Part shown: positions 1 through 51,055 of the stretch, one piece after another
How positions within the stretch are numbered: the first letter of the stretch is position 1
Layout of the letters: every line of letters starts with the position of its first letter
Assembly (NCBI RefSeq): GCF_964194155.1
Contig: NC_135897.1
Coordinates: 84,382,001-84,446,000, forward strand
From: Cetorhinus maximus
Lineage: Eukaryota
Direction: 5' to 3'
DNA length: 64,000 nucleotides
The notes under the pieces: generated by a model
The model's input: only the letters and a program-made list of their open reading frames with translations
Databases searched by the model: none
What the model was told of the DNA's origin: nothing
Program-made: the position numbers and the translations under genes

Positions 1-112
1 GTCATTGGTTCTTGTACTGAACGCTAGATTATTAATCGAAATGTTAAGACTGAAAGATGTAAAAATCTAAGGTCTTGATTTTGGAGGCAGGTATTTTGCA
101 AAATTAGTTGCA

Positions 113-326
113 AGCCTTCGGAGCTCTTCCTCAAAAGGCTGTGGAAGCAGAGCCTTTGAATGCTTTTAAGGCGGAGCTAGATAGATTCTTGATTAACAAG
201 GTGGTGAAAGGTTATTGGTGTGGACAGGAATGTGGGGTTGAAGTTACAAGCTATGATCTTATTGAATAGCGGAGCAGGCTAGAGGGGCCGATTGGCCTAC
301 TCCTGCTCCTAATTGGTATGTTTGTA
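113..326 (+). mobile_element. CR1 LINE 3' end fragment
   Basis: FKAELDRFL-coding end and 3' tail gaggggccgattggcctactcctgctcct. Absent from duplicate copy B. Confidence 0.8.
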
Positions 327-986
327 AAATTTGCTTTAAAAGCATGGCCGAATGTTTCTTTCTGAAAATTTCTGTTCAGAAACCTACTTTTGTTGAAACG
401 AATGTCAGAATTTGCATTTGTCTGGTGCCTTCCCCTTTTATACGATTGCACCGTAAGTACAAAAGCACCCGAGGGTTATGTGCTGAAGTGCCTGGATTTG
501 GACTTGAGCCCGTGTATGACCTTCTGTCTCTAACGCGATAGTGCACGCACTAAGTCAAGATGGACTCCTTGTTGTTATAGAACAAGCTAACCATAGACAT
601 CACCACTTCAGAGGGAAGATTTATTTAATAGCAAATGCCTGATAAAATTCCACACTCGTTTAAGAGAGTTACTGTCCACTGACACTTCTTCACAATGTTT
701 AAATGGTATCAAACCTAAATGCCTGGAAGACAACAAAACAGAGCGCAGTGATCACTGACGTGGTTAAAATGATTGTTTATGTGCACGTCCTTGAGTTCAT
801 TGCTAATCTGGATTTAGTTCAACATATCTGATGTGATGTTCTCAAAGTATCATCAAATGCAAAGAAACACTTGGATATGAAAAATCTTTCTGAAGAAGCA
901 GGTATCAAGTTCTGAAGGAATAACCAATCTCAACCTGACACAGAAGATCATTGTATATATAATCCCACAAACACAAAAGAAAAACC

Positions 987-1080
987 ACCTACCTGACTAA
1001 AAGTGTTTGATGTGGTATTACTCTGAGCCTGTCAGATTAAGAGTTTCTTGCAGCGATGCTGGACTGGAGTTGTGTCTTTT
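987..1080 (-). other. Putative non-coding 5' exon of an unseen paralogue left of the window
   Basis: Homologue of 10543-10635 with the same CAG|GTAGGT donor. Confidence 0.45.
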
Positions 1081-1252
1081 TTTAATATCATGATATTATT
1101 GGCGAATTTGTGCTGTTCAGCTGTTCCTTTAATGAGAAGTGCCATGATTGGTCAACAGCAGTGGTTCAGTCATTGTTATTTTGAGTAATACTGATGTATA
1201 ACAGGAAATAGTGTGTTTAACTTAAAGATCTAATAATGCATTGTATAGATTC

Positions 1253-1253
<1 letters not shown>

Positions 1254-1284
<31 letters not shown>
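1254..1284 (+). repeat. (TG)n microsatellite
   Basis: About 15 TG units; only a short tgtgtgtgt run at the homologous site near 10846. Confidence 0.95.
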
Positions 1285-1285
<1 letters not shown>

Positions 1286-2443
1286 ATACCTCGGTTTTAA
1301 ACTTTTGATTAAAAAAAAACAATTGTCACTTTATTTTGATGTGTGGAGAGTTTGCCTTTTGCTAAATTTGAATTTATACCACAATCTGTGTCACCTTGGT
1401 TTGCCTAAATTTGGAGCTGTGGTCTTCATGTGGTATCAGCGATAAGGAGGCGTTGGAGACGATGCAAAAAGGTTTCAGAAGGATGTTCCCAGAATTGAGA
1501 GAATAGAATTATCAGGAAAGGCTGAAGAGGCAGGAGCACTTTTCTGTGGAAAAGAAAAGGTTGGGGAGTAACCTGATAGGGGCCTTTAAGATTACAAAAA
1601 GTTTGATAGGTTAAAAGTGGAAAAAATGCTGCTTTTTATGCACGAGTCTAAAGTGTTTTGAAAGTTGGGTTGAGGTTGAACAATGTGATTTAAAGCAAAC
1701 AAAACCTTACATTTGGCAGTAGGCCCATATATTATTGTCTACTGGAACTGAGTAGAACTAGACTGAGTTAGTGTGTCCTGTTCCTATTGACATTTGTGGC
1801 TTGGACTGGAACCACTGTGTCCCTGGTTCTCTGCCCCTCCCTGGAGTTGTTCTGTATTCTTTTCTCCTACAGAGAGAGAAAGCAGAGGATTGCATGTGTG
1901 AGAAACAGATTGTTTGGAGAAGAGGAAAGGACAACATCTGTGGAGGATGAGTGAGATAGCACAAAGATAAGAGTGCGTGTGTGTTGGCTGGTCAAATGGG
2001 GATTGGGAGGAGGTGTCTGGATAGAGGGGAATGAGTGGAGCTGCAAGGTATGTTGGTCTGAGTGTTATATAGGAGAATGCTGGGGAAGGCAGAGTGTGGG
2101 GTTTGGCGCCTGAAAGTGTTTTAGCCACTTTCTCGCCCTCCTGAGGTCCTAGATCCTCTTATGGCATTGTCTCCAGGTTTGAGGGATTACACTCCTCCTG
2201 CAGACATCCCCAAGCCTTTTCCATTCATACCTACTTCATTGGGGAGTTTGGCCTCATGTTTCTCAAGGACTGGAGAGAATACCTCACTGCTCTCAGTCAG
2301 AACCTGCAGCCTGACCTCCAAGGCAAGATTTGAAGAGCCTCGCGGGTAGCCCTCCCTGTTTTCCTTTCCAGTTCTGTGACTACTGAAGCCACGGAAATCA
2401 ATATCGGGATTTCCCAGACGAGAGTCGCATAGATGTAGCTATT

Positions 2444-3260
2444 GTCATGAACGCTGAACTTTACAATGTGATTATGTTTGAAAATGTCCCCTTTAACTTA
2501 CAATAAAACAGAACGTCCTGAAATGGGGTGGGGAGGTCGTCAGGGTGGGTTCCTGAGAAATACCACCGTTTGGAGAAATGCCAAAGTAATCCGGTTGTTT
2601 TGGAGAGAGAAACTAAAATGGAAACTCATTGGAGTGAGGTGGCAGCACTTGCATGATCTCACAGAAAAGGCAGCTGCTGTTTGAGATGCTGAAACAAAGC
2701 AGCTTTCTCTGTGGAAAAGCAGGGTGAACCGTTTCATGGTAACAGCCAAGCAGGATGCTTGTGAGAGTTTGGTTTCTGTTCAAAAAAAAGTGAATAGAAT
2801 AGACTTGGCTTTTGGAAGATTTAATGAATGGTGAGTTGTCTTGATGTGGCTTGCTGGTGGTAATTGGATCCTGAAAACTTGAACGGGGAGTGGAGTGATT
2901 GTTGAAGGACTCTGGAAGTTTAGACCTGGCATGGCGGGCAGATGTGAATCTCTGCTGGAGAGCTGGCAATGAATGTAGGATTGTTCCCGTGGTGCCACAT
3001 CTCTGTCAGAAGCGATGTGTTGCATGTAAAGGCATTTCCTAAAACATATTTCGGATTTGTTAATTATTAAATGTGAAACATACCATTTTAGCTTGTTGTA
3101 TCAGTTGCTTGTCATTTGATGCTTGATCCTTGTTATTTTAGTTTGTTACATTAAAGCAAGATCTTGTCCACCTGAGTATTTCTGTTGGTAGTTTGTGAAA
3201 TTTGTCTCTTTTATAAAAAAAAGTTATTGGTCCCTATAAGGATGATCTACATCGTCCCTA
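2444..3260. mobile_element. Probable decayed solo LTR
   Basis: Starts tgtcatgaac just where duplicate homology ends; non-coding, LTR-like composition. Family not identifiable. Confidence 0.3.
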
Positions 3261-3728
3261 GGCAAGGGAGTAAGATAAATACAATGCAAATAACAAAGGA
3301 AACATGTACCATTGTTCACCAAAAGACCCTTTCTTTTAAATAATGCTACATAATCTTTTTGAAAGAGTTAGCTGCATTTAATTTATTTCTTTTCATCTGG
3401 TCCAATGGTCACTTCACAACTGTTGAGCTAATGTAACAGCACTTTGGTCTTGCTTCACATTCTAATATGCTGACATGCTGTTTGGAAAGCTCATGGTTGT
3501 ACTATCTTTATGCAGGCTTTTTTTCTAAAATGGGAACTTCCTCTTTCAATTTACACAATATCTGTTTATTTTAAATGGCTGCAGGTCTTCAGGCTGAGGA
3601 TTATCCTGTTCACCCTCAAAACTAGCTCCCTTGTCAATGCAAGTGCACAAACACACCAGTGTCCAACTTCTGCTGAATGTACAGAAGGAGAGGAAGGTGG
3701 CAAAGCTGCAAGTGCCCAGTGCAATCAA

Positions 3729-4424
3729 GGGCAGAATTTCACGTTTCCCTGTGAAATATCTCGAACGGCTTTCCCACCAGGCTCCCACCTGTCCAGACCT
3801 TCCCTCAATTTTCTGCTGAGATGGATGAGGCTGTTGCTGGCCCACCTGCCGTTGCTCCAGTTAAGGGCCTTAAGTGGCCAGTTATTGGCTGCTTAAAGGC
3901 CGTTTCCCGCCTAGGTTCAATTTTCTGGCTAGCGAGATGAATTCAGGTGCCGGGGAAACCCGAAAATTAACCATGTTTAGGTCTCATGTTGGGTCAGGTG
4001 GTGCCAGGTGCCTCCATGAGCAGCCTCCTTTTCATAACAGGCATCTCCACCCCACCCCGCCCCCAAACCCCACCTGTGCCAAATGGACTGGCTCACGCCG
4101 GTCCTCCCTCTCCCTGGCCTCTCCTGCAACACACCACCCTCCTTTTCCCACCCCTACCCTAGAACCTCACCTCCCCATCCTGCCCTGAGACCCCAAAAGT
4201 GGCCCTGGGCTCATGGAACTTGGGCTGCATGGATAGCTTACAGTCTCAGCCCTGTCCACTGGAGCTTCTGGCGCTGCAGGAACTAGAGAGCTGCTGGCCA
4301 ATCAGATTGGCTGGCAGCTCTCTGGAGGGACTTCGTCCCGAATGAGGGGCAGTAGTTCCGCCTCCAACCAATTAATACTTGTTAGAGCGTTAAATGGCTG
4401 CACGGCAGGCAGTATTGGCGGGAC
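3729..4424. mobile_element. Harbinger-type MITE, left part; the right end probably resumes at about 6310-6377 after a LINE insertion
   Basis: Begins gggcagaatttc, the terminal repeat shared with the elements at 27324, 44667 and 55294. GC-rich body. Confidence 0.6.
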
Positions 4425-6309
4425 TACTTCCATGCCAAACAGCACAAGCAGCAGGAGAAAGACAGAGCTAAGTTTGCCCGCAACGTACGGATCAGATCTA
4501 AGCTCTGCAGTCCTGCTAGATCCAATCGTGAATGGTGGTGGACAATTAAACAACTCACTGGAGGTGGAGGCTCCACAAATACCCCCATCCTCAATGCCCA
4601 GTACATCAGTGCAAAAGACAAGGCTGAACATTTGCTACAATCTTCAGACAGAAGGGCCAAGTGGATGATTCATCTTGGCCTTCTCCGGAGGTCCCCAGCA
4701 TCACAGATGCTAGTCTTCAGCCAATTTGATTCACTCCACGTGATATCAAGAAATGGCTGAAGGCACTGGATACTGCAAAGGCTATGGGCCCTGACAGTAT
4801 TCCGGCAATAGTACAGAAGACTTGTGCTCCAGAATTTTCCGCGCCCCTAGCTAAGCTGTTCAGTACAGCTACAACACTGGCATCTACCCGGCTATATGGA
4901 AAATTGCCCAGGTACACAAAAAGCAGGACAAATCCAACCCGGCCAATTACCGCCCCATCAATCTTCTCTCGATCATCAGTAAAACAATGGAAAGAGTCAT
5001 CAACAGTGCTATCAAGCGGCACTTGCTTAGCAATAACCTACTCACTGACGCCTCGTTTGGGTTCTGCCAGGACCACTCAGCTCTTGACCTCATTGCAGCC
5101 TTGGTTCAAACATGGACAAAAGAGCTGAACTCCCGAGGTGAGGTGAGAGTCACTGCACTTGACGTCAAGGCCGCATTTGACCGGGTGTGGCATCAAGGAG
5201 CCCAAGCAAAACTGGAGTCAATGGGAATTAGGGGGAAAACTTTCGCTGGTTGGAGTCATACCTAGCACAAAGGAAGATGGTTGTGGCTGTTGGAGGTCAG
5301 TCATCTTAGCTCCAGGACATCATTGCAAGAGTTCCTCAGAATAGTGTCCTCAGCCCAACCATCTTCAGCTGCTTCATTAATGACCTCCCTTCCATCATAA
5401 GGTCAGAAGTGGGGATGTTCGCTGATGATTGCACAATGTTCAGCACCATTCGCAACTCCTCAGATACTGAAGCAGCCCATGTCCAAATGCAGCAAGACCT
5501 GGACAATATCCAGGCTTGGGCTGACAAGTGGCAAGTAACAATTGCGTCACACAAGTGTCAGGCAATGACCATCTCCGACAAGAGAGAATCCAACTACTGC
5601 TCCTTTCTGTTCAGTGGCATTACCATCACTGAATCCCCCACATTCTGGGGGTTACCGTTGACCAGAAACTGAACTGGACTAGCCATAGAAAAACTGTGGC
5701 TATAAGAGCAGGTCAGAGGCTAGGAGTTGTACGTCGAGTAACTCACCTCCTGACTCCCCAAAACCTGTCCACCATCAGCAAGGCACAAGTCAGGAGTGCG
5801 ATGGAATACTCCCCACTTGCCTGGATGAGTGCAGCTCCCACAACACTCAAGAAGCTGGACACCATCCAGGACAAAGCAGCCCGCTTGATTGGCACCACAT
5901 CCACAAACATTCACTCCCTCCACCACCGACACACAGAGGCAGCAGTGTGTACCATTTACAAGATGCACTGCAGGAATTCACCAAGGCCCCTTCGAAAGCA
6001 CCTTCCAAACCCACAACCACTACCATCTGGAAGGACAAGGGCAGCAGATAGATGGGATCACCACCACCTGGAAGCTCCCCTCCAAGTCACTCACTGTCCT
6101 GACCTGGAAATATATCGCTGTTTCTTCACTGTCGCTGGGTCAAAATCCTGGAACTCCCTTCCTAACAGCACTGTGGGTGTACCTACACCAAAAGGGACTG
6201 CAGAGGTTCAAGAAGGCAGCTCACCAGCACCTTCTCAAGGGCAACTAGGAATGGGCAATGAATGCTGGCCCAGCAGAGAAACCCACATCCCGTGAATGAG
6301 TTAAAAAAA
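4425..6309 (+). mobile_element. CR1/L2-clade LINE (family B), 5'-truncated, decayed RT
   Basis: GPDSIP, NYRPI, ALDVKAAFDRVWH, PTIFSCFINDL, MFADD. 3' tail gggcaatgaatgctggcccagc...cacatcccgtgaatgag followed by an A run. Confidence 0.92.
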
Positions 6310-7064
6310 GGATGATTTTGCCGCTGACTCCTCGGATGGCGGGAGGAGAAACCCTGTCATCTTAACACTCCTGGACCAACAGAATTTCTCTGATCTTTGC
6401 TGTATTTAGCCCTCCCTCGCTCCCAATTTTCTGATCACTGAAATGAACATATTGACCTGAAATGGTCTCTCTCATTTTCCAGGTATTAATAAGATGTCTC
6501 TTTAAGATTAAACACTATGGCTGTATGTTGCTATATTTCTCTAAGACGGTAATGTTATATGTTATACAGCCATCAACGGTGGACACAGTGAAGCGTGAAT
6601 TTTCTTGATCAGAATGCTTCAGTCAGTTTATGTCAAAATCAGATGAAGCAATGTGATTGTGCAATGTTCCAAAATTCTACTTTATAGTTACATCCTTGTG
6701 TTTTCTACTGCAAATTATGAAACATATGTGTTTCCTACTGAAAATTATGAAACATGTAAGCCATCTATGTGTATACATTTTTCACTCTTATTGAAGTTAC
6801 AGGAGATAGCTATCTGTGAGGTGACTCGTTACTTTTAAAACTTCTTTTGTGAGTCTTTATGATTCTGCCACCAGAATAAGAGAGTGAGACACTAGGAGCT
6901 GGTGCATGTATGGTTACTTAGATACAAGTTTCTTAGTATCTTCCTATCCTTAGTGAATGATCTGGTTGCTGTGATTATGGTAAATTTGAACCTGGGTGAA
7001 TGCCATGGTTGCTGGTGATTGTGATGCCAGAGGTCCTGGGGTCTGGGTTCAAACTGAGGTATTA

Positions 7065-7268
7065 AAATCTTCCTTGGCCAATATGTATTCCTCAGCTGAC
7101 ATCACCAGGGGCAGACCAACTTAATTCATCTCATTGCTGTCTTGTGGGATCTTGTTGTATATAACTTGGTCACTGTTTTTGACAAGAAAACAAAATCGTG
7201 TCTATATTTCAAAAACATTTCGATCACCCTGAAGCACTTTTGCAGTAGGCATTACATGAACTCAGTGC
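7065..7268 (+). mobile_element. DeuSINE (SacSINE1-like) 3' remnant
   Basis: tccttggccaatatgtattcctcagc...ttgtgggatcttgttgt matches the body of the 46050-46430 copy. Confidence 0.5.
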
Positions 7269-7269
7269 C

Positions 7270-7275
7270 TTTATT
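7270..7275 (-). terminator. Candidate polyadenylation signal of paralogue A
   Basis: AATAAA on the minus strand about 90 nt after the stop codon. Confidence 0.3.
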
Positions 7276-7364
7276 CTTCCCATCTCCCAAACATTTTTTT
7301 CAAATCTCTTCAGGAGTTTCGGTTTCCTTCTTAGTAATTTGAATAATCGAGGTCAAGGAGAGGT

Positions 7365-8441
7365 TCAAGGTGATTTTGCAAGGTTTGTGTTACGTTCTTT
7401 TACAGTGTCTGCTGTTGGTTCGTTGAGCACAGATTGTGAAGCGTTAGCATGTAAGGACAGATTGTTGGGGGAACCATTGGCCTTTGAGTTTCTTTCCAGA
7501 CCTAACTTTGACCTGAATGCCTTACAAAACAGAAAGTAGATCACAGGATCGAAGCAGGCGTTAAGCGTTGACAGCACAATGGCAGATTCTTTAAAGTGGT
7601 AAAGAGTCTTTTTCCAAAAACATCCAATGATGACATTAATCTGACTTAAAATGTAAGCAAGCCTTGCGATGTGGTAGGGAACAAAACAAACTAAGAAGAC
7701 AGTAAGGAGGATGAGGATGTTGTTCTTTGCCTTGGCTTGCTTCTTGAGTGAGCTTGGAGATGGGGATTTGTCAAGACGTTTTGCAGTTTGAAAGTAAAAG
7801 AAGCAAAGCCCCATTAGCACGCAGAGAAACAGAAATGTGCCTCCAACATGGAGGAATATATGCCAGTGAATTCCCGTACCACTTCTAAATCCTAAACATG
7901 TTTCTTTTGTACTATTCTGGGCTGGCTTTTTCCATGTCAGGTACACGTATGAAACTCCAAGGCTGAGAAGTACACACCAGGTTCCAATGGAGACAATTTT
8001 TGCAGACTTGGGTCTTTGAAATGCATATATTTTCAATGGTTTGACAATTTTCAGGTATCTAGTGGCCGCAATGTATCCCAGGAAGAGAATGCTTGAGTAC
8101 ATGTTCAAATAGAAGATGCATGTCGTAAAATTGCAGTAGATTATTCTCAGTATTGTGGAGCCCAAATTGCGCTCTCCTACGATTCTTATAGGCAGTGAGA
8201 GGACCAGCAAGAAATCGGCTACGACCAGGTTCTTTAAATAGATGATGATGCTGTTGCGGTTGGGAACGTGACAGAAGTAGACCCAGAAAGCCAGGCTGTT
8301 GAGAATGATTCCAACTACACAAACTAACGAATAGGCAGTAATCGTAAATATTGCCAAGCCACCAGAAGAAAACTGGCACGTGATGTTGCCAGAGGAATTT
8401 GTGCTTGAGCCAATCTCGATGCTTGCTGTAGGGTCAGCCAT
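7365..8441 (-). CDS. P2Y14/GPR87-group class A GPCR, ATRY-type paralogue A (358 aa, single coding exon)
   Basis: Intact ORF with 7 hydrophobic segments. TM2 YLKNLVVADFLL..LP, TM3 C..FYLNMYSSILFLGYIAATRY, TM6 CFVPYHxxR, TM7 KExxx..DPVIY. N-terminal sequons NSS/NIT; N-terminal, ECL2 and ECL3 cysteines. Splice acceptor ...aacattcAG lies 8 nt before the ATG. Confidence 0.93.
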   Translation of the reverse strand: MADPTASIEIGSSTNSSGNITCQFSSGGLAIFTITAYSLVCVVGIILNSLAFWVYFCHVPNRNSIIIYLKNLVVADFLLVLSLPIRIVGERNLGSTILRIIYCNFTTCIFYLNMYSSILFLGYIAATRYLKIVKPLKIYAFQRPKSAKIVSIGTWCVLLSLGVSYVYLTWKKPAQNSTKETCLGFRSGTGIHWHIFLHVGGTFLFLCVLMGLCFFYFQTAKRLDKSPSPSSLKKQAKAKNNILILLTVFLVCFVPYHIARLAYILSQINVIIGCFWKKTLYHFKESAIVLSTLNACFDPVIYFLFCKAFRSKLGLERNSKANGSPNNLSLHANASQSVLNEPTADTVKERNTNLAKSP

Positions 8442-8803
8442 CGGTACACCTGAATGTTAAGGCAGAATATGTTATTTTTCTGAAATGGCATCATGTAACA
8501 ATTTGCTAAAAGAGGCAATCCTTGAAAAGTGTTGGGACGGGGATTAAGTATTGTGATCGACTAATTATTTTTTGATAACTGGCTGTTGATGTACTTTCCA
8601 TTCATTATGGAATGTTAGTAATGCAACAGCAAACCATGACAACAGACTTGATGTGCTTTGTGTTAAAGCAAACAATAGCTTTTCTCAGGAAAAGGCACTT
8701 AACACTGCCCATCTTTAACAAAAAGCCTTTGATATATCACTTTGTCACAACGTTGCAGAATTTATGTAACTACAGTTTGAAGACTTTGTGCTTGTTCATC
8801 TTG

Positions 8804-8920
8804 AAAGAAAGAGCTTGCATTTATATAGCACCTTTCATAAATTCAGGATGTCCAAAAGCACTTTACATCTAATGAAGTACTTTTGAAGTGTAGTCACTGT
8901 TGTAATACAGGAAATACATG
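8804..8920 (-). mobile_element. DeuSINE 3' tail fragment
   Basis: aaagaaagagcttgcatttatatagcaccttt...gaagtacttttgaagtgtagtcactgttgtaat. Confidence 0.65.
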
Positions 8921-9479
8921 AACAGATTTCACAAATTGTATTGCGTTCAATACATTAATTGTTTATTCTCTGGATCTCTTGTTTTCGATTCTGGTAAATG
9001 AATGATAAATAGTAATTAAGAACTCTGAATCTGTGAATGCCACAAAATGCATGGGGGAAACTGCATTGGTTTAGGTTATGAACTCATAACCTGGACTTAC
9101 TTCCTCCTATCTGCTGGTCTTCAAACAAAAAGCAAATATCAAATGTTGGAAACTTTAAGTGCCAATAATATGTGAACTTTGTCCATTACCTGCTCTTCCC
9201 CCATTTCATTTCATTCACCTTATAAAGTAGTCTATTTACCTTTTAGATCTAACAAAAAGATTCACACCTAAATGCTATTGCAATCTAAGGCGTTGATAAA
9301 CCTGGCGTGTTTTTCCAGTGCGTTCTCTTTTCATCCCTATTAGCTGCAGTTGTATTTGCCTGTGATTAACATAAACATTTTGCAGCAACGTGACTGTTTC
9401 AGCGATTCACAGAAGAGTGCTTTCAGGATGTGTGTGTGACAGCGCCTCTTTTCGAGTCAAAACAAATAAACTAAATTAA

Positions 9480-9705
9480 CAAAATCAGGGACAAATTAAA
9501 AAGCAGCCCCTTAAAGGGAAACTGCAAAAACAGAGACAAAATTTAAAGGAAACTGACAAACATCAAACCAAAATGTGATCGAGGATCAATAAAACACTCC
9601 GGCCCCTGCGGGTGCCCACCGGGCATTGAAGGCTTCAACGGTGCCAGCGGACATTGCTGTGCTCTCTCTCCAGGGACACCCGACGACGAATGTAGCCACG
9701 GGAAA
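9480..9705 (-). mobile_element. Tx1/L1-like LINE 3' end
   Basis: Minus-strand peptide RGYIRRRVSLERE..AGTVEAFNARWAP followed by a T-rich 3'UTR. Confidence 0.55.
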
Positions 9706-10542: not shown

Positions 10543-10635
10543 ACCTACCTGACTGAAAGTTTTTGATGTGGTATTATTCTGTGCCTGTCAGATCAAGAGT
10601 TTCTTGCAGCGATGCTGGACTGGGCTTGTGTGTAA
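10543..10635 (-). other. Putative non-coding 5' exon of paralogue A
   Basis: Minus-strand donor CAG|GTAGGT at 10551-10543, conserved in the duplicate (995-987) within a well-conserved block. No ATG in the exon. This gene family typically has 5'UTR exons. Confidence 0.5.
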
Positions 10636-11039
10636 AAAAAAATGTTTTTTAATCCTTGCGATATTCCTGGTCAAGTTGTGCTGTTCAGCATTTCCCAGAC
10701 TTAGTAAATAGCGAGATGAATAATCAAGTGCTCAGTCAGAAGTTCAGCTCTGACCAACATTATGAGTTTACTAGTGATGTAAAACAGGAAACATGGTGTT
10801 CAATTTAGAGATCTGACTATGCATTGCATTATTTCCTTGTTTGATGTGTGTGTTTCACATCAGACCTTGGTTTTAAACATTTTGTTGAAGTATGGAGAGT
10901 TTGCCTTTATAAAACGTTCTTTGCCACCTTGGTTAGTTTAAATTGGCAGTTCTGGTCTCCATGTGATAACAATGATAAGGAAGCACTGGGCAAGGTGTAA
11001 AAAGATTTCACAAGGGTGATACCAGAACTGAGAGGATTA

Positions 11040-14960: not shown

Positions 14961-14964
14961 AAAT

Positions 14965-40320: not shown

Positions 40321-42134
40321 GGCAGTTGGACTTGTCAAAAATAAAATAAAGCTTTTAAAAATATTTTTGCATATCTTGTAAAGTAGCTGCCTGTAAAGGA
40401 GACAACAGTTGCAGCCAGACCACTTACCCATTGGCCTCTGTTGAAGCATGTTGTATGAATATGCCAAATTATTAGTGATTTAAATTACAGGAACTTTAAT
40501 CGATAGCAATTCTTGCTTGGAAAGGAGAAATTTATTTATGCACCAGTAAATTCCATAGTTACTGCTACATAATGCTACTTAAATATTGGGTCTATCTGAA
40601 TGGTAACTTGCAAAGCAATGTACCATTATTATGGGATCCTGCTGTGTAAAAATGTTGACTGATGTAGCTAATGCTCTTCCAATGTAGCCATTGTCTACGA
40701 AGCTCTTTGAGGAGAGAAACCTTGTTACTCTGAGGGGTCTGATATGTCAGGGACAGCAAGATTTTTTTTTTACAAATATCACCAGTTTCTAAATCATATT
40801 GGAGGCAGGTTTTGAATACTTGGGTTCACGTAAAAAAACAAATTGTGACCTTGAGTTTTCCATTTTGACATCATTGTACCTCAGTTGGATCACAGCCTTC
40901 ATTAGGTTTTGGTGCTGCTGTTCTAAAATCTAAAATCCAACAGAGGGCACTGTCTTATCATCAGTGATGTAACCAGCAAACCCCAATTTGTCACGGAAAT
41001 TGTGAAGAATTGTTTAATAAATGTTAACCACTTGCTAAACCTCATTTGAGGATTTTGTCCCAAAAATATGTTGACCTTCAAAACCCACTGAAGCATATAA
41101 ACCAGAGGAAATATGAACATATCAAATATTTTTCTATCTGCTGAATTACCCAAGGCAAGTTATTGATTAAATGCAAATAAATGCCATAAGTGTGAAAAAA
41201 GTAATGTTGCAGTGAACTGGTGAGCCTATGAACATATGATCGATGTGCGATCACTCTGCGCTAGTACCCCCATGCTCTTTCAAGATAACCATCTGCCTAT
41301 GGCTGATAATTCAGCAGAGAAACTCTGAGGAATGGGACGCACACCTTACTGGCATTCCAGCCTACTGAACCCTTTTCCCGCTTGTTTCTCTCTCACTTTT
41401 CTCCCTGCTCACTCTTGTGGACTCTCCGGTCCAATTTTCAGCTCAGAACGTTTGTCCAGTTCACCTCACCCCCCCCCAATTTCCTCTCCTCTTCATTCAG
41501 GGCCATCTGGCTAGTTATGGAATCCGTAGCTCACAGTGACTGAGAACTTAAAACACTTCCCTGGGATTTTGTGGCTCAGCTGTTCACCACTGTAGCCAGG
41601 AGACCCCAAGAGCCATGTTAATCCAGTGTTTGCAAAGGCTTTTAAAATGGCCTTGAAAATGTGTGTGTCTAACCTACATGTCAAATATCAAAATAGAGTT
41701 AAATGTCAAAATCAACCCAATGATTTCTTCATGCTAAGAGTCCCCCCCCTCCCCCCTCCCGCTTCCATCTAGCTCTTGTGTGTTCTTGCGCTTTCTCTGT
41801 TTCTGGACTGAAACTGTAGTTTAATTGCCAACTCAATTTTGTTTTAGTTTATTGTGTTCAACAGCTTCATAACATATAACTTTGCTGCGAGCTTTTCAAA
41901 CCACACCTGGTGGGGACTACATAGAGCCTCAGAATGTGGGACTCGATCCTTATCTCTGACATTCAGTCGTTATAAAATAATAAAAGCCTTATTTAACCAC
42001 CATGTTCGGGGCTGTGACAAAGGATTCTACTCTGAATATTAACCTGCCTTTGTCTTTCAAGTGTTGACTGATCTCTGCAATTTCAACATGTTATTGTTAT
42101 ATTTACTAATTTCTTTCTCCTAATGATGCAAATC

Positions 42135-42225
42135 ACAAAAACAAAACAAAAACAGAATTACCTGGAAAAACTCAGCAGGTCTGGCAGCATCGGTGGAGAA
42201 GAAAAGAGTCGACGTTTCGAGTCCA
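42135..42225. mobile_element. Penelope terminal fragment
   Basis: aaaacagaattacctggaaaaactcagcaggtctggcagcatcggtggagaag...gacgtttcgagtcc. Confidence 0.7.
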
Positions 42226-42277
42226 CATCCAAATCACATCCCTTGTTTTCCCAACTTATACAAAGAAAAAAATGAGA

Positions 42278-42570
42278 ACTTACTTAGGATCAGCTACAGA
42301 TCTTGATGTTTTCTGTAAACCTTCACAGATGATGACCCTTTTGACAATTTCCTCAGCATGCAATTCTAACACCAAATGAATCCAAAGCTGCTGAAGTGAA
42401 GCTTAAATAAAAGGAAGAAAGATAGTTGTCCAACCCGAAATAAATTTACTGGTTTGTGGAGTAACTGTGTAAGCAAACGGTAGATGACAACTATTTATCA
42501 AACTGGTGTGGTAGGTGGGGCTGCTGTTCCTCAGATATCACACCTTTCAGGAAGTTACAACTTCCTTTAT
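42278..42570 (-). promoter_or_regulatory. Candidate first exon and promoter of the P2RY14-like gene
   Basis: Donor GTAAGT at 42283-42278 (minus). AT-rich TATA-like stretch at about 42403-42412, RUNX-type TGTGGT at about 42507, and ETS-type CAGGAAGT / ACTTCC at about 42548-42565, all in a non-repetitive island. Confidence 0.35.
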
Positions 42571-42847
42571 AATCTTAAACGGGGCAGATTCTAGAACGTG
42601 TTGTCGATTGTCAACACCAGTTTGAGGCCCATTTGGTAGCCATTGGTGCTCAGTGCCTCCAGAAAAATGTAGCTCTCGGGCTCTTTGTCAGTCTCCTTTG
42701 GATTAAGATGAAAGAACAGGTGTCACGGATGAACCCTGTACGAATGAGGAATTTCCAAAGAATTGCTAATTAGATTTTGGGAATCTTCTTTCAAGAGAAA
42801 AAATTGTAAGAAAGAGTTACCTCTAAATTTCTTCTGAACAAATGCAT

Positions 42848-45800
42848 TTGGAGCAGGAGTAGGCCACTCGGCCCCTCGAGCCTGCCCTGCCATTCAGTCA
42901 GATCATGGCTGATCTGATTGTTATCTCCCGCCTACCCCCAATACCTTGCATCCGCTTGTTGATCAAGAATCTATCTATCTCTGCCTTAAAAAAAAACAAA
43001 GATTCTGCTTCCGCTGCCTTTTGAGAAAGAGAGAACCAAAGACTCACCGCCCTCAGAGAGAAAATTTCTCCTCATCTCTGTCTTAAATGGGTGAACCCTT
43101 ATTTTTAAACAGTGGTCACTAGTTCTAGATTCTCCCACAAGAGGGGACATGCTGTCCACAGCCACCCTTCAAGACCCCTCGGGATCTTAAAGGTTTCAAT
43201 CAAGTTGCCTCTTACTCTTCTAAACTCCAGTGGATACAAGTCTAGCTTGTCCAACCTTTCCTCATAAGACAACCCACCCATTCCTGGTATTAGTCTAGTA
43301 AACCTTCTCTGAACTGCTTCTAACACATTTACATCCTTCCTTAAATAAGGAGACCAGTACTGTACACAATACTCCAGATGTGGTCTCGCCAGTGTCCTGT
43401 ACAACTGAAGCATAACCTCCTTACTTTTGTATTCAATTCCCCTCGCAATAAACAATAACATTCTATTAGTTTTCCTAATTACTTGCTGTACCTACATATT
43501 AGCCATTTGTGATCCATGAACTAGAAAACCCAGATCCCTCTGAATCTCAGAGCTCTACAATCTCTCACCATTTAGATAACAAGCTTCTTTTTTATTATTA
43601 GTGCCAAAATGGATAATTTCACATCTGCCCACTTTATACCCCATTTGCCAGATCTTTGCCCGCTCACTTAACCTTCTATGTCCCTTTGTAGCCTCCTTAT
43701 ATCCTCTTCACAACTTACTTTCCTATCTATCTTTGCGTCATCAGCAAATTTAGTAACCATACCTTCAGTCCTTTCATCTAAGTCATTTATATAAATTGTA
43801 AGATATTGAGGCTCCAGCACTGATCCCTGTGGCACACCATTCGTCACATCCTGCCAACCAGAAAAGGACCCATTTATGCCTACTCTCTGTTTCCTGTTAG
43901 CTAGCCAATGTTCTATCCATGCCTCAACACCATGAGCTTTTATTTTCCTCAGTAACCTTTGATGTGGCACTTTATCAAATGCTTTCTGGAGATCGAAGTT
44001 CAGTATATCTACCAGTTCCCCTTTATCCACAGCACATGTGACTCCTTCAAAGAACTCCAATAAATTGGTTAAACATGATTTCCCTTTTGCAAAACCATGT
44101 TGACTCTTCCTGATTGCCTTGAATTTTCCTAAGTGCCCTATCATAACATCTTTAATAATGACTTCCAACATTTTCCCTAAGTCAGATGTTAACCTAACTG
44201 GTCTGTAGTTTCTTGCTTTGCGTCTCCCTCCCTTTTTAAATAAGAAAGTTACATTTGGTGTTTTCCAATCTAATGGAACATTCCCAGAATCTCGGGAATT
44301 TTGGAAAAGTAAACCAACGCATCAACTATCTCTTAGCCACTTCTTTTAAGACCCTAGGATGAAGTCCATCAGGACCCGGGGATTTGTCAGCCCACAACTC
44401 CAACAGTTTACTCAGTACCACTTCCCTGGTGATTGTAGTTTTCCTGAGTTCCTCCCTTCTTCCAATTCCTGGTTTTTGGCTATCTCTGTGATGTTACTTG
44501 TAGCCTCTATAGTGAAGACTGATGCAAAATACCTGGTCAATCCATCTGCCATCTCCTTACTTTCCATTATTAATTCCCCAGACTCACTTTCTATAGGGCT
44601 AATGCTCACTTTGCTAACTTTTTTCTTAATTAAATATCCGTAGAAACTCTTCCTATCCATCTTTATGAGCAAAATTTTTAGCTTGGCGGGCAGGCGTGCG
44701 CCCGACCCAACCAAGCGTAAAATGACAGGTGATGACGTTGGGCGAGCTTCCCGATGTCATTGCGCACTCGCGCGATATTTCAGTCGGTGGGTGCAAGCCA
44801 GAGTCGGCAGCACGCCCGCCAACAATTAAAAGGCCTGTTAAGGCCATTGAATTATCAATTCACTTGAATTTTTCGCTGTGCCCGAGCATTGGCGGGGCGG
44901 GCGAGAAGGCCAAGTGGCCTTTGCGCTTTTTGGGAGACCTCGTCCACGGGCGGGATGAGGTTTCCTAAAGCAAACAATAAAGCGAAATAAAAATTTTAAA
45001 ATTTAATTAATAGCATGTCTCCGCTCATGTGACAGAGTCACATGACGGCACGTTTCATTACATTTTTATTTTCTTTATTTCTCTCTTTTATGCCTCTTCA
45101 TCTCACTGAGGTAGCTCTTTGCCTCGGGGAAATTATGAAGTGTGCACTTGTGCACCTGCTTGAAGTTCTCGCGCTCGCCCTCCTCCCCCTCTCTCCCGCC
45201 GCCCCCCCGCACAGGCAGAGCTGAGCGCTGCCACTCGCCTTTCATGCTGAGTGGGCCTTAATTGGGCCTAAATCACCTTCCGGCCCTGACCATGGGCGGC
45301 GGTCGTCTTCCCATCCGCCACTGCCTCCCCCCACCGCTGAGCCCACCCGACATGCGGGAAATTGTGCCCTATATTTCTAGCCAGCTTTCTCTTGTACTCT
45401 ATTTTTTTCCCTCCTGATTAATCTTTTTGTCATTCTTTGCTGTTTTTTTATATTCTGTCCACTCTTTTGACCTGTTGCCTGTCTTTGAGCAATTATATGC
45501 TTTTTCTTTAAGTTTTACACTATCTCTAGCTTTTTTAGTTAACCATGGATGTTGTGTCTTCCCCTTGGGATTTTCCTTTCTTGTTGGAATATATCTATTC
45601 TTTCTATCCTGAAAAATCCCCTTAAATGACTGCCACTGCAACTCTATGGACATTGACCTATCCCTTAACTTAATTAGCCTGTATACTTTAGCTTGCTCTG
45701 CTTTCATGCCCTCATAATTGCCCTTATATAAGTTTAAATACTGTTCTTGGACCCACTCTTCTATCCCTCAAACTCAATGTAACATTATAATTGCTGCTAC

Positions 45801-45958
45801 GTAGAGGGGCTTTCACTATGAAATTGTCAGTTAATTCTATCCCATTGTACAATACCAGGTCTAGTATAGCCTGTTTGCTGGTTGGCTTTAGAACATGCTG
45901 TTCAAAGAAACAATATTCTATGAACTTCTCATCTAGGCTACCTTTGCCCATTTGATTT
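42848..45958 (-). mobile_element. CR1 LINE, about 2.4 kb, interrupted by a MITE
   Basis: SQHGF.KGKSCLTNLLEFFE, DLQKAFDKVPH, KFADD, RPHLEYCVQYWSP. Confidence 0.95.
44667..45369. mobile_element. Harbinger-type MITE inserted in CR1
   Basis: Imperfect TIRs gagcaaaattt / aaattgtgccc, 3-bp duplication TAT (44664-44666, 45370-45372). The CR1 sequence rejoins on removal. Confidence 0.85.
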
Positions 45959-46049
45959 CTCCTTGTGCATTTTCTCTCATGACAGATTTCAAAGACTAGC
46001 CTGAGGTCTAAGAGCAGGCAGCACCTTTCACAGTTTCAAGGGGCTGCAC

Positions 46050-46430
46050 AGTGCTTTACAATCTATGAAATACTTTTGCAGTTTTGTCACTGTTGCAATG
46101 CAAGATAAGGGGGACTCAGTTTGTACACAGGAAGCTGCACAATGTGATTATGATCACATAATTTGTTTTTCAATGATGTTTGAAAGATTGATATTGGTCA
46201 AGACACAGGGGATAAATCTCATGTTCTCTTATAAAAAATAGTGCTTGAGAGGACAGGGAGTGTCTCAGTTTAACGTCTTATCCTGAAGCTACACCTCTGA
46301 CAGTGCAGCACTCTCTCAGTACTGGCACCAGAATGTCAGCTTTGTTTATTTTCTCAAGTCCCTGGAGTGGGACTTCAAACCATTGCTGTCTGTCTGAGGC
46401 GAGATTGCTACCAGCTGAGTCATGCCTGAG
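46050..46430 (-). mobile_element. DeuSINE (SacSINE1-like), near full length
   Basis: tRNA-like head (gactcagctggtagc...gggtttgaagtcccactcca), Deu core (gagtgctgcactgtcagaggtg...aagacgttaaactgag) and 3' tail. Confidence 0.75.
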
Positions 46431-47844
46431 TTAACACTGAAGAAAGGTGAAGGGGGAAAGGATGCTTCAAAAATGCTAATATTGTCCTCCCCTTTTGTAT
46501 CTGCAGAGTAGGAAATTGGAACAAGAAAAGATGATTTCATTGATTAATGCAAGCAATATAGATTGTTTCTGAACGGTAAGCTGTGAGGCTTGGTGTAGGA
46601 AATGATATTGTTGGTCATGGACAATATGAAAGCTGTCAAAAAGATAGATAGAACAATGGAAAGAGAAGAGATTGGTGATTATTATTGATATTATCGATGA
46701 CCAGCTCCTTTTTGTTCTTCCATTCAGGGGGTGTGGTTGGGGCTGGCTATCAATCTAGACACTCTCACCTCAGGAATCAATCTAGGATTAATCTCACGTT
46801 GATCCAGAGCTTCCTGAAGCAGCGTACGTGGAAAGTTACACTGAAATATACACCAAACTTCAAATCAGCAAGCTGCGACAATTTTTCCTGAGAATTTCAT
46901 TATCAAGAGCTGGGATGTGAAAACCAATGTTAAGCTCGAGGAAAACAGTGTAAACAGTTGTCTAAGCAAAGCACCAAACTTGCAACATTTTCCTTCTTCG
47001 GGTCCCTGATGAAAATTAAAGTTGAAGCAAGCAAACCATCACTAAGCACTGAATGTTTGAGGAATTTTTAAATGTAAATTATTCTTATGCAATAAAGATG
47101 CATTCAGAGATGGAGGAAATTGTCATTGCGGAGAATCGTCAGCAATACTTCTGGCACGCTGGGAGACTTTTCAAAGTGATATTGCAATTCTGCTTGTGGT
47201 AGACACTGAGCTGACCAAATAGAGAGAAATTTTAATGAACGGAAACCAGAGCACTATAGATGCTGGGAATGCGAAACTAAATCAAAAACCCTGGAAACAC
47301 TCAGCAGGTCTGAGAGCATCCCACAGAACTGAGGAAGCATTCCAATACTCGAACTCCAACTTGTGTGTTCTCACCAAATGTTGTCTGAACTATTGCAGGT
47401 GTCGAGGATTTTAAATGATGGGGTTTCTGCCTCAGTAACCACTCCATATAATGTGTTCTAATAATCCTGAGCGACAACTTCCCCTTTCATTCTTCTGTTG
47501 ATAATCTGGACTCTATGTCTCATTGTTTCTGCTTTTTGCCAAAGGGGTAACAACCTATCACTATTTACCACTTCAAAACTCTTGTGAAAGATTATTTCTC
47601 CCTTAACTGCTGTTGTGATAAATAATAGCGTTTACGTTTTGCATTTTAAAATGTTATTCTTTGCTGTACTTTTTCCCATGACCCTAATGATCTTACGCCC
47701 AAATTTGCATGCAGAACTCCCAAATGTAGCCTCACCAATTGTCATCAATTTTATATTTAATGTCCTCGTTTTAACATTTGTAATTTCATTTATCTTATTA
47801 TTGATTCTTCTCCATGCCCATCCATTTGTGATCATCACACTTTA

Positions 47845-49440
47845 GGAGAGATGTGAGGAACCTTGAGATGGTGCAGAAGCGATTTACCAGAATTGTTTCC
47901 AGGAATGGGGGATTTCGGTTAGAACGTTGTTTAGAAAAGCTGGAGCTGTTCCCCTTGGAGAAACTTAAGGGAGATTTGATAGAAGTGTAGAAGACAAGTT
48001 TGGATAACTGTTCCCATTAGCTGATAGCACAAGGAGCAGCGGAGTCAGATTTAAGGTTTTGGGTAAGAGGTGCAGGGGGACTGTGAGGAGGAACTTTTTT
48101 ATGCAGTGAGTAGTACTGACCTGGAACACCCTGCTCATGAGGATCCTGGAAGTGGAAACAGTCAATGATTTCAAACGGAAATTGGATGGGCACTTGCGAG
48201 AAATAAACTTGCAGGGCTATGGGGCTCATGGGAGGAGTGGGGTTGACTGGATTGCTCTGTGGAGAGCCGGCACGGTCTCCATTGGGCCCAATGGACTTTT
48301 CCTGTGCCATTCGTTAACGACTCTATGACAATCCCTTCAATGGATTGTGTGCCTGGACCCCTGGATCCTTATGTTGCATTTTCACAGAATCACAGAATTG
48401 GTATGGTGCAGAAGGAGGCCATTCAGCCCATCGTGTCTGCACTGGCTTTCGAAATGAGCATTATGACTTAGTGTCACTCTCCTGGGCCTTTTCCCCAAAC
48501 CCTTGCACATTGTTTCTATTCAAATAATCATCTAATGCCCTCTTGAATGCTACTCAAACAGATCATGGCTGATCATCCACTCCTATACCATTTATTCCCA
48601 CATATCCCCATATCTCTTGATGTCAACAGTCTCCAGAAATCTATCAATTTCTGTCTTGAATATGCTTAATGACTGAGCCTCCACAGCCCTCTGGGTAGAG
48701 AATTCCAAAAATTCTCCAGCCTCTGAGTGAAGAAATTCCTCCTCCTCTCAATCTTAAATGGCCTACCCCTTATCCTGAGATGCTGTCCCCTAGTTCTAGG
48801 TTCACCAGTCAGGGGAAACATCCTATCCACATTTACCCTGTCACACCCTGTAAGAATTTTGTAAGTTTCAATGAGATCACCTCTCATTCTTTGAAACTCT
48901 AGAGAATGCAGGCCCAGTTTCCTGAATATCTCCTTATAAAACAATCCCGCCGCCCAAGGGATTAGTCTGGTGAACCTCCGTTGAACTCCCTCTATGACAA
49001 GTATATCCTTTCTTAGATAGGAGACCAAAACTATACATACTATTCCAGGTGTGGTCTCACCAAGACTCCACAATTGCAGCAAGACATCCTTACTCCTGGA
49101 CTCAAATCCTCTTGCAATGAAGGTCAGCATACCTTTTGCCTTCCTAATTGCTTGCTGCACCTGCATGATAGCTTGTAGTGACTCGTGAACAAGGACACCC
49201 AGGTCCCTTTGGACATCAACGCTACCCAAAGTTTCACCACTTAAGAAATACTCTGCCTTTTTATTTTTTTCTAGCAAAATGGATAACGTTGCGCTTATTT
49301 CATATTACATGCCATCTGACCTGTTCTTGCCCATTCACCTCACATTTCTAAATCCCCTTGAAGCCTCCTTGGCATTCTCCTCACAACTTACATTGCCACC
49401 TAGTTTTGTGTCAACAGCAAATTTGGAAATATTACAAATG
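47845..49440. mobile_element. Adjacent CR1 fragments (47845-48330 plus; 48385-48550 and 48555-49440 minus)
   Basis: NDFKRKLDGHL; QRDLGVLVH..LRKDILVIEGVQRRFTRLIP..MRGDLIETYKIL. Confidence 0.9.
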
Positions 49441-50112
49441 TTCCATCTGTGAAAGGTGGCACCTCAACAGTGCATCATTCCCTAAGAATTGCTTAGTTAA
49501 TGTGCTCAAGTCTCTGGTGTGGGGCTTGAACCCACAACCACTGACTCAGGCATAAGCGCTACCAACTGAGCCAAGGCTGACGCTTAATAGGTGATCTGTA
49601 GGCTTAGCACAGCACTTGGTTTATAGTATCAAAGACCTGTAGGTGAAGCAGATGTAGACAGCACTATATGAGTGGCCCATTTTAAGAATATGCTTTTCGT
49701 GTTAAGTTTGCGAACATATGGTTATATCCTCATTCACGTTCATCTCTTAAAAAAAGAGAAAAGAAGGGACAGAGCACATTTGGATTTGTGGAAGTAAAGT
49801 GCAATGGATTACTGGAAAATGAGCCTTCTGCTCTTGGGTAGCTAGGAAATGTCTGAGAGGTACATGATACTTCCTTGTCGGAAAGCCAATTGCTGCAATC
49901 TAAGTTCGGGTGTTAGTGGTGGAGTATTGTGGTGACTGTTAAGATTCGATGCTACAATTAGCTGGCTTAGGATTTGTAGGAGAGCAAATGATTTGGCTGA
50001 AAGAGTTTTTATATCCATAACAACATGGGGGACAGTGCTTTTTTGGAGCCGGGTGACCAATTGGATGTTTTAGTTGACAGTAATGTCTTGCTTTATATTG
50101 AGGCGATTCCAT

Positions 50113-51055
50113 TCAGAGAATTCTTTCTACTCGCATCTTTTTAAATAGCAGCCTGGTGAATGACTTGCACAGCAGGATGTAGATAAAAGGGTCAAGGAAA
50201 GTGTTAAACGCACAGAGAAGCTGTGAGACCTCCTTTGCATAGTACAGTGTGTTGTATGTGGTACAGTCTCTCTGATCAGTTCGGCCGTTGTCATAGGGGA
50301 CTCTGATAATCTGGTAAGGCACAAAGCAAATGAAGACTCCCATGATGCTGAATATGTTACGATTTGCTTTCTTTTTCACGTTGCTGGAGTCCTTTTGGAA
50401 TTTTTGATCGGACCAGTATACTTTTTTTTTAAGATGGCTGAATAACACACAGTGAGGAGAACAAAAGTGATCCAGAAAATAACTTTGCATTTGAAAACCT
50501 TGAAATGGTGCCAAGCCTCACCCAACTTGTTTTTCAACTGATAACACTGTGCTGCGGTTTTCTCTGTAGGGGTCTGGTTTGTCAGAATAATGTTCGGCAG
50601 CGCAGAGCCCATCGTGAAGACCCAACAACCTGCACTGATGACTTGGGTAAAGATGACCTTTTGCACCATGAGGTTTCTCATGGGCCACACTATCTTCAGA
50701 TACCTGTCGAAACTGATCAGGCCGAGGAACATTATGCTCAGGTACATGCTGCTATAGAAGAGCACGAGAGTGTAACGACACACAAATGCTTTCAACTGCC
50801 AGGGTCCAAGACGTGAATCAGACAGGATTTTAAAAGGAAGCGTGATGAGCATCATCACATCAGTGGTGACGATGTTCTTGAGTTAAACCACAAAGCTGGA
50901 TTGATTTGGAATGTGACAGAAGACCCAGGCGGCCAGTGCGTTCAGCAGTAACCCTCCAATAAAAAGAAAGAAATACAAAACTGGAAGGACCACTCTTGCG
51001 GTGTTCCTCAGTCTGTGCAGCCTGTGATGTTGGGAGAATCTGTCCTTGTGTTCAT
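50113..51055 (-). pseudogene. P2RY14-like pseudogene, paralogue of 36026-36994
   Basis: Colinear with the intact gene but split over three ORFs. Frameshift near 51010 (MNTRTDSPNITGCTD then TGA), TAT>TAA nonsense at 50883-50885 in YLKN, frameshift in the A9 run at 50422-50430, and a one-codon deletion in TM6 (FTICF>FICF). Confidence 0.88.

What the first reader, a model, noticed from the sequence alone, without database searches (positions are those of the whole stretch)
1..51055. Actively diversifying tandem array of P2Y14-group receptors (birth-and-death cluster)
Seen: three intact genes and one pseudogene, all on the minus strand, forming two subfamilies (ATRY-type pair; FDRY-type P2RY14 pair), plus a duplicated upstream block implying a further copy. 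Known: mammals have single GPR171, P2RY14, GPR87, P2RY13 and P2RY12 genes in one co-oriented cluster inside MED12L. Inference: this is a lineage-expanded nucleotide/UDP-sugar/metabolite sensor repertoire in a cartilaginous fish, possibly in leukocytes. It is the best candidate for an undescribed system here.
Basis: partly seen in the sequence, partly recalled or inferred. Interest (0 to 1): 0.7.

Follow-up and report, generated by a model that had tools for sequence, protein, structure and literature searches.

The report
Shark P2Y14 and orphan GPR206 cluster
This shark DNA lies inside a MED12L intron and holds tandem copies of two different receptor genes, true P2Y14 duplicates and members of an apparently fish-only orphan family (GPR206), which likely sense extracellular nucleotides; most copies are old rather than a fresh burst.

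Summary
In detail: three intact receptor genes, one pseudogene, and the predicted extra copy 1.4 kb left of the window. The window is the middle of the known GPR171–P2RY14–GPR87–P2RY13–P2RY12 cluster, in one MED12L intron of a lamniform shark (NCBI labels identical neighbouring proteins basking shark): 10 intact genes, 3 pseudogenes.

The FDRY genes are tandem co-orthologues of P2RY14. The ATRY genes are not P2RY14 (AU p=0.004). They belong to an orphan clade catalogued in 2019 from gar and teleosts as GPR206/GPR212. I found no paper placing it in sharks, and no tetrapod member.

"Actively diversifying" is overstated. Subtypes A and B predate the shark–ray split, and four paralogues have 1:1 white-shark orthologues. 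Turnover is real but slow, with gene conversion among the P2RY14 copies. One copy (36026–36994) evolves fast in its ligand-facing loops. GPR87 is a pseudogene here.

Likely function: Gi-coupled sensors of diphosphate-bearing nucleotides, with a remodelled base pocket. No ligand, coupling or tissue was tested. This is a modest extension of a known family, not a new system.

The parts
1..64000 (+). Part of one ~276-kb intron of MED12L that holds the whole receptor cluster on the opposite strand
   Evidence: MED12 Pfam exons flank the cluster. Exons matched to the MED12 paralogue stop at window-relative -68037 and resume at +207962.
330..2404 (-). Duplicated upstream block of GPR206-type gene A2, whose coding exon lies just left of the window
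   Evidence: 72-76% match to 9890-13356; intact A2 ORF at -2500..-1379
993..1127 (-). Inferred 5'-UTR exon of A2; donor after 993, 5' boundary approximate
   Evidence: Conserved exon and GT donor in 4 of 4 A-type upstream blocks
7365..8441 (-). GPR206/GPR212-clade orphan GPCR, subtype A (A3, P0001), intact, 358 aa, ATRY motif
   Evidence: Contigs of three RNA-guessed runs of relatives cover this coding exon.
8450..10548 (-). Inferred 2.1-kb intron in the 5' UTR of A3 (GT..AG)
   Evidence: Acceptor AG before 8449 and donor after 10549. Contigs stop matching at 8449, 8449 and 8453; the joint itself was not displayed.
10549..10700 (-). Inferred 5'-UTR exon of A3; 5' boundary approximate
   Evidence: low contig depth at 10601-11000 in X1-X3
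19958..20995 (-). GPR206/GPR212-clade orphan GPCR, subtype B (P0002), intact, 345 aa
   Evidence: 92% identical 1:1 white-shark orthologue
32039..52060 (-). Left copy of a two-gene segmental duplication (F1 + pseudogene); the right copy (F2 + F3) lies at about 65400-89300
   Evidence: Collinear blocks at 33-40 kb offset; flank divergence 15-16%
36026..36994 (-). P2RY14 co-orthologue F1 (P0003/P0123), intact, fast-evolving, with pocket changes H5.36Y, K176R and 6.62N
50113..51055 (-). P2RY14 pseudogene (two frameshifts and a premature stop), 95% identical to F3

Best explanation
The window is the middle of the P2Y12-like receptor cluster inside a MED12L intron and carries two distinct gene types, tandem P2RY14 co-orthologues and shark members of the fish orphan clade GPR206/GPR212, both predicted to be Gi-coupled receptors that likely sense diphosphate-bearing extracellular nucleotides. 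Shown: gene order GPR171, A1, A-pseudogene, A2, A3, B, F1, F-pseudogene, F2, F3, GPR87-pseudogene, P2RY13, P2RY12; the clade assignments; A and B both present in sharks and rays; a two-gene block duplication; identical tracts between P2RY14 copies. Inferred history: unequal crossing-over added copies at a slow pace, some decayed, and gene conversion homogenised parts of the coding exons while ligand-facing loops diverged. Inferred function: agonist phosphates are held by Y3.33, R6.55, Y6.58 and K7.35, TM6/TM7 move inward and R3.50 engages Gi, as in human P2Y14. The GPR206 base pocket (Y/F4.60, H5.40, G5.43) would admit a different, probably larger, base than uracil.
For: Trees: ATRY genes form a 100% SH-aLRT clade with sturgeon, gar, bowfin and teleost proteins (34 of 88 rows; 16 of 47 rows). 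That clade includes a protein labelled Si:ch73-309g22.1, the marker of Rinne et al.'s clade. AU rejects ATRY+P2RY14 (p=0.0045) and ATRY+GPR34L (p=4e-5). FDRY genes group with human P2RY14 at 97% and 95%. Age: A1, A2, B and F2 share 90% clusters with white-shark proteins; 25 subtype-grouping against 1 species-grouping site in the A1/A2 quartet. Conversion: pseudogene/F3 coding divergence 4.9% against 16.4% in flanks; pseudogene/F2 tract p=1e-4. Pocket: Y3.33, H5.36, R6.55, Q6.62, K7.35 and E7.36 kept in 20 of 20 elasmobranch A-type proteins, R3.50 in 115 of 116 clade members. Residue roles come from PMC12075594 and PMC12738662.
Against: No ligand, coupling or tissue data. The same cage residues are kept in shark GPR171, P2RY12 and P2RY13, and partly in GPR34L and GPR34, so they do not fix the ligand class. 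AU does not reject ATRY+GPR171 (p=0.118). The careful bootstrap tree did not finish, and AU groups were named after seeing the trees. No A-type pair passes Bonferroni for conversion (best p=0.0075 of 24 tests); clustering of subtype sites in ECL1 is p=0.08 in a region chosen afterwards. A3, F1 and F3 have no white-shark orthologue in the hit lists, which leaves room for younger turnover. B-type and teleost members lack H5.36 and K176.
Confidence: 0.7

Rival explanations
1. One reading: one P2Y14-type family expanded recently in this shark lineage and is diversifying by birth-and-death into a UDP-sugar sensor repertoire.
For: 3 pseudogenes among 13 loci. Species-level P2RY14 pairs in Hypanus, Pristis and Stegostoma. 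F1 is accelerated 2-4 fold. NCBI names all neighbours 'P2Y14-like'.
Against: ATRY+P2RY14 rejected as a clade, and the four own ATRY genes rejected as a clade (p=9e-5). Orthologues are shared with white shark and rays. Flanks have diverged 15-21%. Whole-gene dN/dS is 0.31-0.83 in 9 of 9 pairs, none above 1.
Confidence: 0.1
2. The genealogy is as described, but GPR206 receptors are not nucleotide sensors: they bind a lipid or peptide as reported for GPR34, GPR87 and GPR171 (recalled; BigLEN also in reference titles), or signal mainly without ligand because D3.49 is missing.
For: Position 3.49 is non-acidic in 20 of 20 A, 12 of 12 B and 80 of 84 teleost proteins. The base pocket is remodelled, and H5.36/K176 are absent from B and most teleosts. 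A sister relation to GPR171 is not rejected.
Against: The A subtype keeps the full basic diphosphate cage including H5.36 and a basic ECL2 residue. K7.35 is kept in A (20 of 20) and B (9 of 12), whereas shark GPR34 and GPR34L have N there.
Confidence: 0.25
3. Extra copies are mostly redundant dosage duplicates drifting toward loss; F1's pocket changes reflect decay or conversion from an older paralogue, not a new ligand.
For: F1/F2 dN/dS is 0.83. F1 replaces H5.36, invariant in 20 of 20 other elasmobranch and 74 of 74 tetrapod P2RY14; H184A abolishes agonist competition in human P2Y14. Local pS in ECL2 is also high (0.29).
Against: F1's frame is intact. Its TM2-ICL2 and TM7 stay conserved (pN 0.05-0.06) while ECL2/TM5-top pN is 0.33, above the 0.154 flank rate (p=6e-6, 7 regions tested). 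A1, A2, B and F2 have been kept in two shark families.
Confidence: 0.25

Closest known systems
GPR206 (main text) / GPR212 (supplement) orphan clade of Rinne et al. 2019, PMC6504862; zebrafish si:ch73-309g22.1, si:dkey-83h2.2
   Same: Same clade by tree with a Si:ch73-309g22.1-labelled protein and gar; many local duplicates; no lobe-finned or tetrapod member listed there or found here.
   Different: That survey had no cartilaginous fish and placed the clade 'near GPR34'. Here it occurs in sharks and rays as two old subtypes, sits between GPR171 and P2RY14 in the MED12L intron, and groups with GPR171/P2RY12-14/GPR87 rather than GPR34.
P2RY14 (UDP-glucose receptor; PDB 9ydu, 9j0b)
   Same: F genes: best PDB hit (E 9e-85), same clade and same syntenic position; K2.60, D2.64, Y3.33, DRY, R6.55, K7.35 and E7.36 kept.
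   Different: Three intact copies plus a pseudogene instead of one. Elasmobranch copies carry I/V at 5.39-5.40, C5.43 and R6.62 where human has S, N, F and Q. F1 lacks H5.36.
Mammalian GPR171-P2RY14-GPR87-P2RY13-P2RY12 cluster
   Same: Same gene order and one orientation; antisense nesting in MED12L. The mouse cluster is stated in PMC10213973; its order and MED12L nesting in mammals are recalled.
   Different: Five extra GPR206 loci, four P2RY14 loci and a dead GPR87.

Membership tests
P2Y12-like class A GPCR group | 7tm_1 domain; monophyly with P2RY12/13/14, GPR87 and GPR171 | tested here: met
   98%; 97%; 99%
P2Y12-like class A GPCR group | Location in the MED12L-nested cluster | tested here: met
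P2RY14 (ATRY genes) | Orthology: one clade with human P2RY14 | tested here: not met
   AU p=0.0045; separate 100% clade
P2RY14 (FDRY genes) | Orthology: one clade with human P2RY14, apart from GPR87 | tested here: met
   97% and 95%; left open against GPR87 in the sparser tree
P2RY14 (FDRY genes) | Agonist-contact residues K77, D81, Y102, K176, H184, R253, Y256, Q260, K277, E278 | tested here: inconclusive
   F3 keeps 9 of 10, F2 8 of 10 and F1 7 of 10
P2RY14 (FDRY genes) | Activation by UDP-sugars through Gi | not testable with these tools
   Needs a cell assay
GPR206/GPR212 orphan clade | Groups with gar and si:ch73-309g22.1-type teleost proteins | tested here: met
   100%. The link rests on one UniRef label (P0051); Rinne's own Ensembl sequences were not fetched.
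GPR206/GPR212 orphan clade | Absent from lobe-finned fish and tetrapods | tested here: inconclusive
   0 of 120 listed hits (of 252) are named from such taxa. All 12 unnamed representatives that fell in the clade nest among teleosts (24 of 150 were placed). No tetrapod genome was scanned.
GPR34 / GPR34-like | One clade with GPR34L | tested here: not met
   AU p=4e-5; this shark has separate GPR34 and GPR34L genes on other contigs
GPR171 | ATRY genes as divergent GPR171 paralogues | tested here: inconclusive
   An intact GPR171 sits beside them; a sister relation is neither recovered nor rejected (p=0.118)
Birth-and-death multigene family | Pseudogenes, copy-number differences and paralogues evolving independently | tested here: inconclusive
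   Pseudogenes and varying copy number are present; independence is broken by conversion among the F copies

The most novel reading that the evidence does not exclude
GPR206 is a sixth ancestral member of the jawed-vertebrate P2Y12 cluster, lost on the line to tetrapods: a nucleotide-type sensor with a non-acidic DRY position and an enlarged base pocket. In sharks its A1/A2/A3 and the P2RY14 copies form a ligand repertoire in which selection diversifies the extracellular loops while gene conversion keeps the signalling core uniform.
Probability: 0.3. Interest if true: 0.55.

Novelty: new member of a known kind. Interest (0 to 1): 0.35.

Why it matters
It corrects a systematic label: NCBI calls these shark and fish proteins 'P2Y14-like', but half belong to a separate orphan clade. 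It pushes that clade back to the ancestor of jawed vertebrates and gives it a syntenic home. The slow-evolving shark A subtype keeps the whole phosphate cage, so it is a better starting point for finding the ligand than the divergent teleost copies. F1 against F2/F3 is a natural pocket-mutant series for P2Y14 selectivity. It does not reveal a new kind of system.

Tried and rejected
Schöneberg et al. 2007 on the P2Y12-like group is not held; I saw only its citation. It may already mention these fish receptors.

Literature: 10 searches. None found for ch73-309g22.1 in main texts, P2Y14+teleost+expansion+phylogenetic+shark or P2RY14+cartilaginous fish+duplication. GPR206/GPR212 returned only Rinne 2019 as relevant. 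One search was swamped by general shark papers, and none of the 20 listed held the receptor terms. Searches gave nothing on fish paralogues at listing level. Subscription journals are not covered.

The ESM Atlas search with a white-shark homologue gave only generic 7tm_1 clusters. No RNA holder is on record; expression of B, F1 and the pseudogene was not examined. Rfam gave 0 hits and TRF 4 trivial arrays. Earlier scan findings: none.

Positive selection by pairwise dN/dS: 0 of 9 pairs above 1. A conversion signal in the A genes did not survive correction. Structure and complex prediction were not run, because likeness to solved P2Y structures would not separate the rivals.
Full report
1. Observation. 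The window holds three intact rhodopsin-family ORFs on the minus strand (7365-8441, 19958-20995, 36026-37015; Pfam 7tm_1 E 8e-38, 8e-36, 3e-39) and a broken fourth at 50113-51055. The pseudogene has a frameshift near 51005, a TAA at about 50884 and a 2-nt insertion near 50425. About half of the window (51%) has two or more matches elsewhere in the 464-kb region, mostly repeats. The block 330-2404 matches 9890-13356. The gene it predicted is there: an intact 373-aa ORF 1.4 kb left of the window.

2. The whole locus. I read 200 kb on each side. In window coordinates, all on the minus strand: GPR171 (-59.2k), A1 (-23.8k), A-pseudogene (-8.8k), A2 (-2.5k), A3 (7.4k), B (20.0k), F1 (36.0k), F-pseudogene (50.1k), F2 (76.0k), F3 (84.9k), a decayed gene (100.7-101.6k), P2RY13 (136k) and P2RY12 (178k). 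That is 10 intact genes and 3 pseudogenes. MED12-family exons lie on the plus strand on both sides. Comparison with the paralogue on contig C8 puts the nearest exons at -68037 and +207962, so the cluster sits in one ~276-kb intron. Exact look-up found 9 of 10 proteins; the 6 encoded outside the window carry NCBI names from Cetorhinus maximus. The decayed gene is 73-76% identical to three shark GPR87-like proteins and groups with them and with coelacanth, arowana and emu GPR87. GPR87 is therefore a pseudogene here.

3. What the genes are. I built trees of 88 rows chosen from about 430 proteins held (LG+G4), 47 rows (mixture model; the bootstrap search did not finish, SH-aLRT only) and 44 rows. 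F1-F3 join elasmobranch and chimaera proteins in a clade with human P2RY14 (97%, 95%). The ATRY genes form their own clade (100%) with sturgeon, gar, bowfin and teleost proteins. It lies in an unresolved three-way split with GPR171 and P2RY12/13/14/GPR87. AU tests reject ATRY+P2RY14 (p=0.0045) and ATRY+GPR34L (p=4e-5), but not ATRY+GPR171 (p=0.118) (groups named after seeing the trees). All 12 unnamed 50% representatives that fell in the clade nest among teleosts (24 of 150 placed).

4. Known? Rinne et al. 2019 (PMC6504862; I saw passages and supplement part 4) name a set of 41 gar and teleost genes with many duplicates GPR206. Their supplement lists GPR212 with 6+35 genes, including si:ch73-309g22.1 and no lobe-fin or tetrapod entries. 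I take the two names to be one clade because the counts agree. A lumpfish protein labelled Si:ch73-309g22.1 falls in the ATRY clade. Their genome set held no cartilaginous fish. Ten searches found no paper on the shark genes, but Schöneberg 2007 could not be read.

5. Age and mode of evolution. Subtypes A and B each contain sharks and rays, so they split before those groups did. A1, A2, B and F2 each share a 90% cluster with a white-shark protein. The A1/A2 quartet gives 25 subtype-grouping sites to 1 species-grouping site. The four intact ATRY genes of this genome are rejected as one clade (p=9e-5). F1 plus the pseudogene and F2 plus F3 are two copies of one block whose flanks differ by 15-16%. 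Against this, A3, F1 and F3 have no white-shark partner in the lists, and the 90% clusters give 1-3 A copies per shark species and species-level P2RY14 pairs in Hypanus, Pristis and Stegostoma (lower bounds). So turnover continues, slowly.

Gene conversion is supported for the F group. The pseudogene and F3 differ by 4.9% in the coding exon against 16.4% in flanks; third positions differ at 12 of about 310 (rough p=2e-6). A pseudogene/F2 tract has permutation p=1e-4, and F2, F3 and the pseudogene share 133 identical bases despite 16-17% overall divergence from F2. In the A group no pair passes correction over 24 tests. Across shark orders the ECL1 region groups A2-type proteins together (89/89) while the rest groups by order, but the site clustering is p=0.08 and the region was chosen afterwards. 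This is suggestive only.

Whole-gene dN/dS is 0.31-0.83 in 9 pairs. F1 carries 2-4 times more unique replacements than F2 or F3 against three outgroups (p 0.02 to 3e-7). Its ECL2/TM5-top differs from F2 at pN 0.33, above the flank rate (p=6e-6), though local pS is 0.29. Selection and conversion from an older paralogue cannot be told apart here.

6. Gene structure and expression. A conserved segment ending in a GT donor lies in the upstream block of 4 of 4 A-type loci: after 10549 for A3 and after 993 for A2. An AG acceptor lies 8 bases before the ATG. Contigs of three runs guessed to be RNA (three studies, two related organisms, 91-95% identical) cover the A3 coding exon and stop matching at 8449, 8449 and 8453. 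Unique bins nearby have depth 0-0.02 in those runs while run X8 covers them. This hints that an A-type gene is transcribed and spliced in relatives; paralogue and tissue are unknown and the joint was not displayed. The duplicated block is thus the 5' exon with its likely promoter.

7. Mechanism. Human P2Y14 holds diphosphate with R6.55, K7.35, Y3.33, Y6.58 and Q6.62, the nucleoside with K176 and H5.36, and couples Gi through R3.50 (PMC12075594, parts 1-2 of 3 read). H184A blocks agonist competition and F5.43C raises ADP-glucose potency (PMC12738662, passages and one section). Mapped on an alignment, the 20 A-type proteins keep Y3.33, H5.36, R6.55, Q6.62, K7.35 and E7.36 in 20 of 20, with R or K at K176. 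They carry Y4.60, H5.40 and G5.43 in 19 of 20 each. B-type and teleost members mostly have Y5.36 and lack K176. Position 3.49 is non-acidic in 112 of 116 clade members and R3.50 is kept in 115. I infer Gi-coupled sensing of a diphosphate-bearing ligand with a base larger than uracil, and possibly raised basal activity (recalled effect of D3.49 loss). The cage is shared with GPR171, P2RY12 and P2RY13, so it does not fix the ligand; about a quarter of my weight stays on a non-nucleotide ligand. F1 has lost H5.36, which is invariant in 20 other elasmobranch and 74 tetrapod P2RY14 proteins: either a new specificity or decay.

8. Verdict. A real feature inside a known cluster. The new parts are the shark members, synteny and subtypes of GPR206, the dead GPR87, and the conversion and acceleration among P2RY14 copies. 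New member of a known kind; interest 0.35.

Noticed in passing
L024:6695-7628 (window-relative 100.7-101.6 kb), minus strand: GPR87 is a decayed pseudogene (stops and frameshifts), while intact GPR87-like proteins exist in Chiloscyllium, Heptranchias and Heterodontus. How widely sharks lost it is unknown.
   Followed up: partly
L020:3186-4216 (window-relative -8814..-7784): Second pseudogene, A-type, with three frameshifting indels and the ATRY motif changed to VTKY.
   Followed up: yes
L023:912-1862 (F3): Intact frame, but with odd changes (proline to threonine in TM2, arginine in TM6, short C-tail); this exact protein is not in the collection. It may be decaying.
   Followed up: no
P0123-P0143, P0259, alignment A3: Elasmobranch P2RY14 proteins share I/V at 5.39-5.40 and R6.62, unlike tetrapods; the 12 in alignment A3 also have a lysine just before 5.43. 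The ligand preference may differ from UDP-glucose.
   Followed up: partly
L041 (C8) and L042 (C16): The genome holds both GPR34 and GPR34-like (GPR34B) genes; the latter is on the same contig as the MED12 paralogue.
   Followed up: partly
window-relative +148993..151770 (L029) and -50523..-47948: 925-aa open frame resembling a Penelope-like retroelement reverse transcriptase plus endonuclease, and a near-identical broken copy (family label recalled, not tested).
   Followed up: no
window 4481-6309, 11896-12465, 37836-39702, 42837-45707, 48637-49436, 52171-53731, 56807-58949, 60063-64000: Many decayed LINE-like reverse transcriptase fragments (label recalled); they could seed unequal crossing-over.
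   Followed up: no
window 14385-14687: Short ORF resembling an LTR-retrotransposon reverse transcriptase fragment (label recalled).
   Followed up: no
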